A DNA stretch of 64,000 bases. Source: Eledone cirrhosa. Its lineage: Eukaryota. Shown here piece after piece: positions 9,888-55,172 of this stretch. The notes under the pieces are model-generated. The model did no database searches and had not been told where the DNA came from. It was given only the letters and a program-made list of their open reading frames with translations. The stretch covers positions 36,890,001-36,954,000 of the forward strand of contig OZ024751.1 in NCBI GenBank assembly GCA_964016885.1. Reading direction: 5' to 3'. The position numbers and the translations under genes were made by a program. Within the stretch, counting starts at the first letter, position 1, and every line of letters starts with the position of its first letter.

Positions 9888-10093
9888 GTGGTAGAACACT
9901 GGAAGGTAATATCCGTAGTGGTAGAGCACTCAGTCCATGGGGCGAGTTAGGTAGAAGTGGTTACACAACAGTTAGTTCACCATAGCGAGAACAATTGTTT
10001 CACCTTAGCGGATTCTCATTACGAGCTGAGGATACGCTAAGGTGAAACAATTGTTCTCGGTATGGTGAACTAACTGTTGTGTAACCACTTCTA
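9888..10093. mobile_element. (TA)n-embedded inverted-arm insert with hammerhead (PLE/retrozyme-like footprint)
   Basis: Structure is (TA)n, 64-nt tail 9888-9951, 67-bp inverted arms 9952-10018 and 10027-10093 (few mismatches), then (TA)n. Confidence 0.75.
10022..10059 (+). ncRNA. Minimal type-I hammerhead motif
   Basis: cgag-CTGAGGA-tacgctaaggt-GAAA-caattg-TT-ctcg. Helix I has 4 bp, helix III is the palindrome acaattgt, the site is GUU, and helix II is weak. Confidence 0.65.
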
Positions 10094-10220
10094 TATATAT
10101 ATATATGTGTGTGTGTGTGTGTGTGTGTATGTGTATTGTAGAGTAGTGTAATTTGGTAAATGATATCCAATGCTGGGAGAGCATTCAAACCGTGGGACGA
10201 GTTACGGTGAATAGATATTT

Positions 10221-10365
10221 ATAATTGTTTCTACTATTGGCTGGCACTAGGCCAACAATTACCCCAGTGTATTACTGGGGCTTTATTTAATCGATCCCAT
10301 AACGTTGAAAGACAAAGAAAACCTCTGTAGGATTTGAACTCAGAACGTAAAGGGACATAACTCTA
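10221..10365 (-). mobile_element. SINE family A, diverged
   Basis: aattgtttctact..caattaccccagtgtattactgg..ggatttgaactcagaacgtaaaggg. Confidence 0.75.
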
Positions 10366-10623
10366 AATTTAGTAGCAAAATAATATAGGAAAAAAACAAA
10401 TTCAATGAAAAATGAAAAACAAATAAAGGGAGCTACCTATTAGGGAGTCTGTATAATGGATAAAAGAAAGGATAGATTGTTGAGTTTGTAGAAGAGGGTA
10501 CATGGGGATGTGGGTCTGTGAAATTGGTAGTTGTTGGCATAAGAGTTCTTTTAATCTGGTAAAGAGGAGTATGTTTATGTATGGGTATGTCCCTGTACAC
10601 ACACACACACACACACACAGATA

Positions 10624-11020
10624 TATGAGGGTAATTCCAAAGTAAGGTCTCCAAAGCGATGGGGACGCAGAGAAACCGTTCGTACAGCTGTTGGCAACAC
10701 TTTTGTGATTGGTGCTTCCTTCACTCCCAAACAAGCATACGCGCGCTCTTCACTGGGATGCTCAATCTTGGCTTGGCAGCCGTTGAGAATGGAGCTCCCG
10801 TTGAACGCTACCGCCAAGTGCGAATTTCGCGCAGTTATTATATAGAGGGCAATCCCAAAAGTAAGGTCTCTTTCCGAGGAAAACATGCGTAAAGATCGGC
10901 GGATCACTCTGGATGCTCTCTTCATTTTGGTTCCTGAGTTTCCCGAAGCACCATCCACAGGATTTGAACGGAAAAGTTGCAATATCGAGAGGAGACCTTA
11001 CTTTCGGGATTGTCCTCGTA
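10624..11020 (+). mobile_element. Composite mariner (Tc1/mariner) remnant with three TIR copies
   Basis: Left TIR tatgagggtaattccaaagtaaggtctcc (10624-10652), second left TIR gagggcaatcccaaaagtaaggtctc (~10843-10870) and right TIR ggagaccttactttcgggattgtcctcgta (10991-11020), all TA-flanked. Transposase pieces are MELPLNATAKCEFRAVI (ATG 10789) and EENMRKDRRITLDALFILVPE/SRSTIHRI*TEKLQYR (frameshifted HTH region). Confidence 0.85.
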
Positions 11021-11090
11021 TATATATATATATATATATATATATATATATATATATATATATATATATATATATATATATATAATATGT

Positions 11091-11240
11091 ATAACGAAGG
11101 AAGTGTGGTAAGGAACCAGGTGGACCATAACGCACCAGAGTACTCGATACTTCGGGTATTAGAGTGGGTAATCCGAACTGTTCGGATCTAGCTGTCAAAA
11201 CAGCCGGAGCTCAGCCGTCGGGGTCCCGACTCTTTTCCTA
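11091..11240. mobile_element. (TA)n-embedded bipartite short element, copy 1 of 3 (carries 3' half of a hammerhead)
   Basis: Homologous to 54991-55172 (inverted) and 57747-57870. The right part, tc-aaaac-agccggagctcagcc-gtc-ggggtcc, is a decayed GAAAC-helix III-GUC. Confidence 0.75.
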
Positions 11241-51720: not shown

Positions 51721-53460
51721 TTACTTAATATAAATTCGCTGATTATTGCATAGACCTTGTTGTTGCTATTGTTGTAATGTAATGTTAGTAAGAATGTTGG
51801 TTTTGTTGTGGTTGTTTTTGGTGGTGGCGTTGGTGGTGATGATGCTGGTGGTGGTGATGGTGCTGGTGATGATGATGATGGTGGTGGTGATGTTATCACG
51901 TTGTTGATAACATTAGATACTTTGTTGATATTCTTGTAATGTTGTAATATTGATGATAACATTAATTTTGGTGTTGTTGTCGATGTTACTGGGGTGGGAG
52001 TCAGCATGACTTATGACCACTGAAGAAAGGAAAGTAACTGTTTTCTTTTGTAATTATTATTATTATTATTATTATTATTATTATTATTATTATTATTATT
52101 ATTATTAGTCTGGGTCAGTAAAGCCGGGAGGGTGAGTTGGGGAGCAGTTAGCTTTGGTGATAGTTTTGATTCTACAGACATTGTTATAGCTTTCTATTAT
52201 TTTTCTTATTGTTGGGGTCACGTGCTATGGGTGTTATTATTTCAGTTTCACTGTTTATGTCAATTGTTTTGGGTTTTTTGTGTGTATTTGTGGTGGTCGT
52301 AATTATAATGATTTATAATAGCGACAGTTATATCGTTGTTGTTGTTCTTCTTCTTTTTCTTGCTGTCCTTATTGTGATGATGATGATGATGATGATGGTG
52401 ATGATGATGATGATGATGATGATGATGATGATGATGATGATGATGATAGTAATGGTGGTGAATCATAGTGTTGTTGTTATTAGTGTTAATGTCTCGTGTG
52501 TTAGGGGCGTGTTGATGGTGTTTTGATACTGACAAGCTGATGGTGCTAGAAATTTGCATTTTCAGATGATTATATATATATATATATATACACACACACA
52601 CACACATACATTCCTACATTCACACATATATAGTCTTTATGGTGTCATGATGGTGATAATTTGCATTTACATATACACAAAACACACCTACCTAAACTCA
52701 TACACACACACTTTTATATATATATATATATATATGTGTGTGTGTGTGTGTGTGTGTGTGTGTGTGTGTGTATGTGTGTGTGTGTGTGTGTGTGTGTGTG
52801 TGTGTGCGTGTGTGTGTGCGTGTGTGTGTGCGTGTGTGCGTGTGTGCGTGTGTGTGTGACTCTATGTATATCGAGGTTGTAGCCGCCACATACCAGATAC
52901 CAATCGAATTTATATATATATACATACATACATACATACATAGTTTTTTCATGGTAAAAAGAAATAAGGAAACACGTGTAAAACAACAACACAATCCTGC
53001 ATACATGACAACCCCTAAAAACTGAACATAAGAATAAAAACAGTAAAAAAAAAAATATTAAACAAAAAAGCAACAAAGACAAATCGAATGAAAAGTGAGA
53101 AAAAGACGTAAAGAATGAATGACGCCACGCATCAAAGGAAATAATTGATGTTGTAACTGGCGTGAACTTAGGAAATAATGATTAGTTTTAGTGAGATTGA
53201 GAGAAGCCGGCAAGAAACTGTCCTTTTTTGAAGTAATTCCCCACAGACACCTTCTACCATTGTTTTATTGGGCTGTAATAGATCTCTCGCACCTAAACAT
53301 CTCATCAACACTTATTATATACATAGGTATATATTATACGGGTATATGTATGTATATACACATATATATATATATATACATACATACATATATATACACA
53401 TATATATATATATATATATATGTGTGTGTATGTATATATATATATATGTGTGTGTGTGTA

Positions 53461-53570
53461 CGTATATACGGATTTATATATATATATATATATATAAATC
53501 CGTATAAACGTATATATATATATACGTTTATACGGATTTATATATATATATATATAAATCCGTATAAACG
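53461..53570. repeat. 14-bp unit in alternating orientation separated by (TA)n
   Basis: cgtatatacggatt-(TA)n-aatccgtataaacg-(TA)n-cgtttatacggatt-(TA)n-aatccgtataaacg. Confidence 0.85.
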
Positions 53571-54024
53571 TATATATATATATATATATATATATATATA
53601 TATATATATATATATATATATATATATATATATATATATATATATATTTATATATATATATTGTGTGTGTGTGTGTGTGTGTGTGTGTGTGTGTGTGTGT
53701 GTGTGTGTGTGTGTGTGTGTGTGTGTGTGTGTGTGTGTGTGTGTGTGTATGTATGTATATATATCAACATCTGCGCGCACAGGCGTATATATACACAAAT
53801 AAATAATCAAATACACACGCATATAGTCAGACACACAAACATTCCCCTCGCCACCCCACAAACAAACACACACCGTGTGATGGAGGTGATGAAGATTTTT
53901 CAAATTTTGACGAAGCGCCCAAACCATGACAGCGCAAAACCGTATGTAAAACGAGATTTGTTATATATGTATATATATAGTGACGAAACATAAGTCAATT
54001 GCATGAACTGATAATCCTTTATTT

Positions 54025-54080
54025 ACTGCTATATATATTTCGATGATAGCCATTGAATGGCTATGACCTCATCAGGCAGT
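54025..54080 (-). ncRNA. Type-I hammerhead ribozyme
   Basis: Minus strand reads actgc-CTGATGA-ggtcatagccattcaatggctatcatc-GAAA-tatata-TA-gcagt, followed by AATAAA. Helix I is a perfect 5 bp, helix II about 11 bp, and helix III is the palindrome atatatat. The insert (53980-54150) is bounded by TA runs. Confidence 0.85.
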
Positions 54081-54990
54081 TAGTCAGTTCTTAGATATGC
54101 CAGCTCTGTGTTTTTGGTGTTGATGGTATCAGAGCCTTGGGACATAATTTATATATATGTATATGTATGTACACACACACACACACATATATATATATAT
54201 TTTGAACATAACCCAACCACCAACATAAAAACATATAAATTAAAACTAAACTTAAACTAACAGAGAGGACAAGCCATATAAAATACAGAATGCCCTGTTA
54301 TAAAAACATATAGCGTGCACCCATAAAAAAATAACACCCGCTCTAACCTAAACCAAACCAGTGACTAAAACCGCTACTTAAAAATCGTAACTTGTTCACC
54401 ATTCTACACGGCCATCGGCAGCCTAATAACTACAACCCAAATCAAATACTTCATACATAACTAATAACATCCAACATTTACTACAAATAATTATCCCCAA
54501 ACCTAACTGAAATCAAAACACATTACAATGTAATAAAATGGTTTCTAATGTTGTTACAATGCCAGCAAGATTGTAATGGAGGAAAGTAAGTTGGTATAAT
54601 CAACTTTTGTATGTGACTGGTACTGTCTTTTTTCGACCCCGTAAGGGTAACAGAAAAACATTGAGCTCGAAGTGATTGTAAACCAGAAGCTAAAAACGCA
54701 GAAAAAAAGCCCGCAAATATCTTCTTTCCATGTTTAACGTTTTCACCACCATTTTACGACCCTTACTTCAACACAATAAAATAGAACAAAAACTAATAGA
54801 AACCGTGTTTGATTCGATAACTTGCACGTCAGTCAACAACTTCATATTTCAATGGGATCTTGGTAAACAAAGATGCCACAAATAGGTTAATCCAACTACG
54901 AACGTGAACTGACGTCTCAGTCAAGTTCGTCTCTTGTCTGTCTGTCTTTCTCTCTCTCCCCCCTCTCTCTCTCATATATATATATATATA

Positions 54991-55172
54991 TAGGAACGAG
55001 TAGGACCCCGACGGCTGAGCTCAAGCCGTTTCGACGGCTAATTCTGGACTAGTCCAGAATTAGCCGTCGAAACGGGGTCCTACTCGATCCTATTACCCAC
55101 TCTATTACCCTAAGTATTGAGTACTTTGGTGCGTTATGATCGACCTGGTTCCTTACCACATTTCCTTCGTTA
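54991..55172. mobile_element. (TA)n-embedded element, copy 2 of 3, with 50-bp perfect palindrome and 80-nt tail
   Basis: Palindrome 55026-55075, outer arms taggaacgagtaggacccc and ggggtcctactcgatccta, tail 55093-55172. The minus strand has gtc-GAAA-cggcttgagctcagccg-TC-ggggtcc (hammerhead 3' half, GUC site). Confidence 0.8.

What the first reader, a model, noticed from the sequence alone, without database searches (positions are those of the whole stretch)
9888..55172. Shared insertion architecture across unrelated families: (TA)n - tail - inverted arm / arm - (TA)n
Seen: five sequence-unrelated inserts have the same asymmetric layout. They are 9888-10093 (64-nt tail, 67-bp arms), 32061-32394 (88-nt tail, 123-bp arms), 32457-32637 (~56-nt tail, 45-bp arms), 42876-43188 (~31-nt tail, ~72-bp arms) and 54991-55172 (80-nt tail). 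One arm always stops at an internal TA fused to the microsatellite, while the other continues into a unique tail before (TA)n. Hammerhead polarity shows both arms are 3' ends pointing outward. These are therefore not MITEs with symmetric TIRs. Established: Penelope insertions often show an inverted, 5'-truncated terminal copy and a 3' tail extension. Inference: both strands of a broken self-complementary (TA)n tract primed reverse transcription on the same RNA, one at the 3' end and one at an internal TA, and the two short cDNAs were joined head-to-head.
Basis: partly seen in the sequence, partly recalled or inferred. Interest (0 to 1): 0.8.

Follow-up and report, generated by a model that had tools for sequence, protein, structure and literature searches.

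The report
Double-primed Penelope retrotransposon stubs in (TA)n
Five short inserts in TA repeats each join two pieces of one repeat family head to head; they are likely stubs of Penelope-like retrotransposons made when both strands of the target primed copying at two fixed start sites, a layout already described whose mechanism these stubs would make easy to test.

Summary
The layout is real. All five inserts sit between (TA)n tracts, carry inverted arms far beyond chance and a tail on one side only, and are unrelated to each other. Reads laid on two of them show high-copy families: the tail is family sequence, the short end is reused with (TA)n attached, and the centre differs from copy to copy with 0-4 nt microhomology. 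That rules out MITEs. A type I hammerhead core pointing outward is present in 3 of 5, not in all. The inverted 5'-truncated copy, one-sided tail and (TA)n preference are published Penelope-like element (PLE) features, and two reverse-transcription start sites bounding the tail, with both strands nicked and extended, were shown in vitro (PMC11167929). No RT gene was linked to these families. New here: tails of 56-87 nt in four inserts, copies in which the two pieces do not overlap, and a tail-less piece that reaches further 5' in every decidable case. These favour two cDNAs joined head to head over the published fold-back model. Whether one RNA or two were used is unresolved.

The parts
9888..9951 (-). 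A: tail, 64 nt, long end at (TA)n
   Evidence: diverged tail-only sibling at 10130-10212
9952..10018 (-). A: tail-side arm, hammerhead core degraded
10016..10093 (+). A: tail-less arm with type I hammerhead core from 10026, fused to (TA)n
   Evidence: 0 of 2000 shuffles give a hit
32062..32148 (-). B: tail, 87 nt
   Evidence: covered by family reads and contigs
32149..32268 (-). B: tail-side arm with hammerhead core at 32251 (-)
32268..32394 (+). B: tail-less arm with hammerhead core at 32292 (+); family sequence continues 5' of 32268 in other copies
   Evidence: 21 and 26 contigs
32457..32512 (-). C: tail, 56 nt
32513..32557 (-). C: tail-side arm, 45 bp; 32513 is the reused short end
   Evidence: 143 and 144 contigs, 1224 and 1240 reads with (TA)n before 32513
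32558..32567 (.). C: 10-nt TA-rich filler at the junction
   Evidence: not covered by family reads (depth at 32559 near zero)
32568..32637 (+). C: tail-less piece, arm plus 25 nt of further family sequence
   Evidence: joint 32557/32592 in 1800 and 1375 reads
42876..42906 (-). D: tail, 31 nt (family status not tested)
42907..42979 (-). D: tail-side arm
42980..43188 (+). D: tail-less piece, 135-nt spacer with hammerhead core at 43003 followed by the arm
   Evidence: (4 of 2000 shuffles)
54991..55050 (-). E: tail-less piece; GAAAC box after a long hairpin, no complete hammerhead core
55051..55093 (+). E: tail-side arm lacking 18 nt
55094..55170 (+). E: tail, 77 nt
11092..11240 (.). E2: same family and same two outer ends as E; tail piece stops at the short-end site (11172), then an 8-bp hairpin and the tail-less piece
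57748..57870 (.). E3: same family and same two outer ends; tail piece stops inside the tail, no inverted repeat

Best explanation
Each insert joins two pieces of one repeat family head to head inside (TA)n, and is likely the stub of a Penelope-like retrotransposon insertion in which both strands of the target primed reverse transcription, one at each of the element's two fixed start sites. Steps: (1) the element's nuclease nicks both strands of an AT-rich target (shown in vitro for an anole PLE; inferred here); (2) one 3'-OH ending in TA pairs with 2-4 letters at the inner start site and makes the tail-less cDNA, the other starts 31-87 nt further 3' and makes the tail-bearing cDNA (fixed ends shown for B, C, E; priming inferred); (3) both stop after about 60-210 nt, often at or near the hammerhead hairpin (lengths shown); (4) the two cDNA ends are joined through short microhomology, a natural palindrome or filler and the gaps are filled (junctions shown, joining inferred). 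If the outer cDNA passes the inner start site the result is an inverted repeat; if it stops earlier the result is tail plus arm without a repeat (E2, E3). The inserts have no function of their own.
For: Hammerhead cores with palindromic helix III point outward in A, B, D (0, 1 and 4 of 2000 shuffles), matching the PLE motif described in PMC4209133. B and C are high-copy: 8873 and 10117 contigs, 18927 and 17968 reads laid on the 621-base stretch, tails covered like arms. (TA)n hangs before the short end in other copies: C 143/144 contigs and 1224/1240 reads, B 52/51 contigs. B's family continues past this copy's centre with one sequence (21 and 26 contigs, agreement 0.96 and 0.87). At least 14 other centres among the rows shown (15 of 46 in table 5, 12 of 16 in table 5c). 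Nine junctions share 22 letters against 7.2 expected, P 0.0007; P 0.006 with three zero rows added back. Three copies of family E share both outer ends and differ inside. The spacer belongs to the tail-less piece in B, C and D, and non-overlapping pieces occur (E3; read joints 32486/32549 and 32497/32585), which one folded-back cDNA cannot give. In vitro precedent: both strands cleaved and extended, two start sites bounding the tail, predicted dimer (PMC11167929).
Against: No RT or GIY-YIG frame is linked: 0 of 123 frames scanned match one (123 of 214 candidates), and no family could be followed into an ORF. C and E lack a complete hammerhead; Rfam showed no hammerhead family among the 150 of 386 rows printed for the window or the 139 rows for B's right half, and the hammerhead segments fold only slightly better than shuffles (z -1.3 to -1.5). 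No empty site was seen; flanks were skipped as repeats. Skip joints and E2/E3 may be later deletions of palindromes, which also use microhomology; most joints rest on one contig. [quoted passage not shown] A, D were not tested with reads.
Confidence: 0.66

Rival explanations
1. PLE origin, but one nucleic acid strand folds back at a palindrome and primes copying of itself (self-priming on an antisense template, proposed in PMC3846280).
For: Palindromes or hairpins lie at the centre of A, B and E; arms are nearly identical (B 120 of 120) while only 2244 of 8873 contigs laid are 99% alike or better; the model is in print.
Against: Fold-back puts the spacer on the strand that carries the tail; in B, C and D it is on the tail-less strand. 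Pieces that do not overlap (E3; joints 32486/32549, 32497/32585) need two starts or a later deletion.
Confidence: 0.12
2. A single truncated PLE copy was inserted, and host replication or repair later made the inversion by template switching between the internal TA and (TA)n, then eroded it.
For: Self-complementary (TA)n covers 8219 of 64000 bases; E lacks an 18-nt hairpin between short repeats and E2/E3 lack most of one arm.
Against: A local template switch cannot supply spacer sequence that the tail-bearing copy lacks (25 nt in C, 135 nt in D); the same short end recurs in over a thousand reads of other copies.
Confidence: 0.08
3. Two separate insertions of the same family landed in one (TA)n tract in opposite directions at different times.
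For: C has a 10-nt TA-rich filler between its pieces; the families are high-copy.
Against: A, B, D, E have no (TA)n between the pieces; the arms are more alike than average family members; always one tailed and one tail-less end.
Confidence: 0.04
4. The palindromic inserts are non-autonomous units that are copied whole.
For: E and E2 have their hairpin apex at the same place.
Against: At least 14 other centres in B and C, and B's family continues beyond this copy's centre.
Confidence: 0.05
5. MITEs or foldback DNA transposons inserted at TA.
For: Inverted arms and TA at the ends.
Against: Ends are asymmetric, tails are family sequence, centres vary, hammerheads in 3 of 5. A symmetric mariner-type MITE at 10843-11019 shows what that pattern looks like in this window.
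Confidence: 0.03

Closest known systems
Endonuclease-bearing Penelope-like elements: inverted 5'-truncated copy plus one-sided tail (PMC8557442 Fig. 2 legend; PMC3846280 Pen2a_Av)
   Same: Head-to-head inverted copies, tail at one end only, palindrome at the junction, (TA)n targets (Naiad, Hydra, Neptune); D's 31-nt tail is in the published 30-40 range.
   Different: No ORF at all, 130-330 nt in total; tails of 56-87 nt in A, B, C, E; pairs that do not overlap; the tail-less piece reaches further 5'.
Poseidon of Anolis carolinensis (PAc) in vitro (PMC11167929)
   Same: Two start sites that bound the tail, downstream of the hammerhead; both target strands cut and extended; AT-rich targets.
   Different: Start sites there are not homologous to the cut DNA and did not differ between strands; here the inner site shares 2-4 letters with (TA)n and each insert uses one site per end. 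The paper gives no model for the inverted copy in the parts read.
Minimal type I hammerheads of metazoan PLEs (PMC4209133)
   Same: CUGANGA and GAAA boxes, short helix I, palindromic helix III; paired motifs on opposite strands 100-700 bp apart were already noted in Schistosoma.
   Different: B's two cores are about 40 nt apart; C and E have no complete core.
L1 twin priming and dual priming (described in PMC2837659; Ostertag and Kazazian 2001 not read)
   Same: Second-strand nick primes a second cDNA; both 3' ends face outward; microhomology at the inner junction.
   Different: In L1 the internal site varies and the pieces usually do not overlap; here the internal site is fixed and the pieces usually overlap, giving an inverted repeat.
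Naiad PLEs of octopus (Naiad_Obim, Naiad_Ovul; supplement of PMC8557442)
   Same: (TA)n preference; 'HHR_half_core' (hairpin plus GAAAC) resembles family E.
   Different: 0 of 5 short motifs from A, C, D, E found in the supplement (B not searched, line breaks can hide a match); the 3' ends read do not resemble the inserts by eye.

Membership tests
Penelope-like element (EN+) | ORF with PLE-type reverse transcriptase and GIY-YIG nuclease | tested here: inconclusive
   None in the window (0 of 123 frames); stubs this short would not hold it, and the families could not be followed upstream.
Penelope-like element (EN+) | Type I minimal hammerhead in the terminal repeat | tested here: met
   A, B, D by own descriptor with shuffles; no Rfam support; cleavage not tested.
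Penelope-like element (EN+) | Type I minimal hammerhead in C and E | tested here: not met
   0 hits in C and E. Naiads lack canonical hammerheads, so this does not exclude PLE origin.
Penelope-like element (EN+) | Inverted 5'-truncated copy joined head to head | tested here: met
   Arms in 5 of 5; polarity by hammerhead in A, B, D; truncation shown for B and C.
Penelope-like element (EN+) | One-sided tail of element sequence, 30-40 bp in print | tested here: met
   One-sided in 5 of 5; family sequence for B, C, E, A (one diverged sibling); length in range only for D, whose family status was not tested.
Penelope-like element (EN+) | Direct pLTRs or partial tandems | not testable with these tools
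   No genome held; two joints at 32512/32513 in table 5c cannot be oriented.
Penelope-like element (EN+) | Insertion into pre-existing (TA)n | tested here: inconclusive
   (TA)n at 10 of 10 ends and at the short end of other copies; no empty site seen.
MITE | Symmetric terminal inverted repeats at both ends | tested here: not met
   One arm is 31-87 nt from the end in 5 of 5.
MITE | Uniform internal sequence among copies | tested here: not met
   At least 14 other centres for B and C; three forms of E. A and D not tested.
Non-LTR retrozyme | Direct tandem repeats each with a type I hammerhead | tested here: not met
   The hammerheads here are single or inverted, not in direct tandem; definition from part 1 of bioRxiv 10.64898/2026.07.22.740005.

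The most novel reading that the evidence does not exclude
Two-ended priming is the normal way these PLEs integrate, not an accident: one dimeric protein on one RNA primes the two strands of (TA)n at the inner and the outer start site, the outer polymerase trails because it must displace the inner cDNA, and joining the two cDNA ends replaces second-strand priming. That single scheme would account for the tail, the inverted 5' copy and the missing target-site duplication across PLE clades, and would replace the antisense self-priming model.
Probability: 0.3. Interest if true: 0.7.

Novelty: new variant of a known kind. Interest (0 to 1): 0.4.

Why it matters
How PLEs finish integration and why they carry inverted copies and a one-sided tail is stated as open in PMC8557442 and PMC11167929. 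Stubs of 130-330 nt hold both cDNA ends and their junction within one read and occur in high copy number in several unrelated families of one genome, so the rival models (two cDNAs, fold-back, later rearrangement; one RNA or two) can be told apart by counting. In practice they also warn that such palindromes will be called MITEs or microRNA hairpins by pipelines. The architecture itself is not new.

Tried and rejected
No genome is held for the window, so no genome-wide copy set or empty sites. Exact motif scans found nothing: C and E motifs in metagenome contigs, B motif in viral contigs. Earlier findings of the scan: nothing by place, sequence or words. Rfam gave only sub-threshold microRNA-type hairpin matches. 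Pfam: 4 weak hits below curated cut-offs among 123 frames, none relevant. No RNA holder listed. Folding the strand round the two start sites showed no common structure by eye (E was folded on its antisense strand there). Joints left out of the microhomology count: 32547/32602, 32556/32593, 32557/32592 (the element's own continuous register), and in the first count also 32156/32268, 32549/32597, 32549/32599 (added back as zeros in the second count); table 5c rows have filler and were not counted. The asymmetry 'tail-less piece reaches further' was considered as proof of a single RNA and rejected: the outer cDNA has 31-87 nt more to travel under either model, and the three read cases can be oriented only because their tail-side piece is short. 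Literature searches for an explicit two-cDNA model for PLEs found none; the library lacks most subscription papers, and Evgen'ev and Arkhipova 2005 and Arkhipova 2006 were not read and may hold one.
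Full report
Scope. I call the five inserts A (9888-10091), B (32062-32391), C (32457-32633), D (42876-43185) and E (54993-55170). 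No whole genome is held.

Observation. All five lie between (TA)n tracts. Arms and tails, measured on the mirror diagonals: A tail 64 nt, arms 59 bp with 1 mismatch; B 87 nt, 120 bp with none; C 56 nt, 45 bp with 1 mismatch and a 35-nt spacer; D 31 nt, 68 of 73 columns and a 135-nt spacer; E 77 nt, a 21-bp outer and a 25-bp inner arm with 18 nt missing on the tail side. Stem scores of 24-117 compare with shuffle maxima of 10-13 (100 shuffles each), and none of the 10 pairs of inserts is related. A blind scan of the masked window printed 7 strong inverted repeats, of which these are 5 (low-complexity rows were filtered and not counted). The other two are a symmetric mariner-type MITE (10843-11019; label recalled) and a repeat round a central (TA)n (50059-50300). 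In 5 of 5 the inner boundary holds a TA and shares 2-4 letters with the (TA)n register (chance about 7e-5).

Polarity. A descriptor for the minimal type I hammerhead, written from PMC4209133 (parts 1-2 of 4 read), gave 6 hits in the window: A at 10026 (+), B at 32292 (+) and 32251 (-), D at 43003 (+), and two solo hits at 54075 (-) and 58918 (-). Shuffles of A, B and D gave a hit in 0, 1 and 4 of 2000. All point outward to (TA)n. C has no core; E has only a hairpin followed by GAAAC, like the 'HHR_half_core' noted for some Naiads. Rfam did not report a hammerhead (150 of 386 rows seen; all 139), and the segments fold only slightly better than shuffles.

Family behaviour. The one read-laying run covered B and C (two contig sets from one sample, two RAD read sets from a second study; 85% likeness). 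8873 and 10117 contigs and 18927 and 17968 reads were laid. Tails are covered like arms, so they are family sequence, not flank. Other copies carry (TA)n directly before C's short end at 32513 (143 and 144 contigs; 1224 and 1240 reads) and before B's (52 and 51 contigs, placed at 32144 because the next letters resemble TA repeats). B's family continues past this copy's centre with one consistent sequence (21 and 26 contigs). C's spacer 32568-32592 is family sequence continuing the tail-less arm (1800 and 1375 reads); 10 TA-rich letters are filler. Among the rows shown (15 of 46 and 12 of 16) there are at least 14 other centres, 6 for B and 8 for C, most in one contig. Nine junctions with a scored overlap share 22 letters against 7.2 expected (P 0.0007), or P 0.006 with three zero rows added. 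Family E has two more copies in the window, 11092-11240 and 57748-57870, with the same two outer ends. In the first the tail piece stops at the short-end site; in the second it stops inside the tail, so there is no inverted repeat. A has a diverged tail-only sibling at 10130-10212 (score 45, best of 500 shuffles 34).

Mechanism. Which piece reaches further 5' separates the models. A strand that folds back can only copy what it already holds, so the spacer must lie on the tail-bearing strand. It lies on the tail-less strand in B (7 nt), C (25 nt) and D (135 nt with the hammerhead), probably in A, and cannot be decided in E, whose centre seems a natural hairpin shared with its sibling. In E2, E3 and three read joints (32156-65/32268-9, 32486/32549, 32497/32585) the tail piece barely passes or never reaches the short-end site. 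That is 8 of 8 decidable cases, but the read cases are selected for a short tail piece, and E2, E3 and the skip joints could be later deletions. The simplest account is two cDNAs, one from each fixed start site, primed by opposite strands and joined at their ends. The arms come from one source: B's are identical while only 2244 of 8873 contigs are 99% alike or better, and both carry a letter at 32162 that 1619 of 1659 reads lack. One RNA, two RNAs from one locus, or later gene conversion would each give that, so 'the same RNA' stays open.

What is known. PMC8557442 (passages; supplement searched and part 24 of 59 read) describes the inverted 5'-truncated copy, a 30-40 bp tail at one end and (TA)n targets, and lists (TA)n-targeting Naiads in octopus. 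PMC3846280 (passages and Discussion) describes the same with head-to-head palindromes and proposes self-priming on an antisense template. PMC11167929 (parts 1-3 of 4; supplements not read) shows in vitro that a PLE protein cuts and extends both strands, starts at two sites inside the RNA that bound the tail, and is predicted to be a dimer. PMC4209133 already notes paired hammerheads on opposite strands. PMC2837659 (passages) describes twin and dual priming for L1. PMC13282606 (passages; supplement listed, not read) counts 30 recently active Penelope families in Octopus vulgaris. The retrozyme preprint was read in part 1 of 5; PMC3649969 gave only a reference entry. An explicit two-cDNA model for the PLE inverted copy was not found, but it follows closely from these papers, and two older reviews were not read.

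Membership and verdict. The inserts work like PLE insertion products (about 0.9 for A, B, D; lower for C and E, which lack the core). Formal membership is not closed because no RT/GIY-YIG frame was linked. The layout is known; the long tails, the non-overlapping pairs and the evidence against fold-back are modest additions. Interest 0.4, because the stubs make an open mechanistic question countable.

Noticed in passing
window 10843-11019 and 10622-10652: Symmetric element with 33-bp terminal inverted repeats (85% complementary), flush with TA on both sides, and a third copy of the end 220 bases upstream; looks like a Tc1/mariner-type MITE (label recalled).
   Followed up: partly
window 53980-54186: Solo insert between TA arrays with a complete minimal hammerhead on the minus strand (core at 54075) and no inverted arm.
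   Followed up: partly
window 58880-58925: Another minimal hammerhead match on the minus strand (core at 58918), 4-bp helix I.
   Followed up: no
window 7011-7079: Older imperfect head-to-head palindrome whose left half carries hammerhead boxes on the minus strand (by eye); possibly a decayed sixth case.
   Followed up: no
window 50059-50300: 66-bp inverted repeat (92%) with (TA)n, about 43 other bases and (TA)n in its centre: a different layout from the five inserts.
   Followed up: no
window 43269-43385: About 90-nt palindrome next to a dispersed repeat; its central letters recur just after the right arm, as in a template-switch product.
   Followed up: no
window 32538 and 32542 (loose ends): Hundreds of reads share C's tail and outer 25-30 arm bases but continue inward with other sequence: related subfamilies share the same 3' end.
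   Followed up: no
window 2029-2192, 4183-4438, 10215-10365, 16808-16985, 31106-31323, 41909-42113, 47821-48018, 50520-50696, 56630-56783, 61501-61742: One dispersed short repeat family with at least 10 copies in the window, SINE-like by recall.
   Followed up: no
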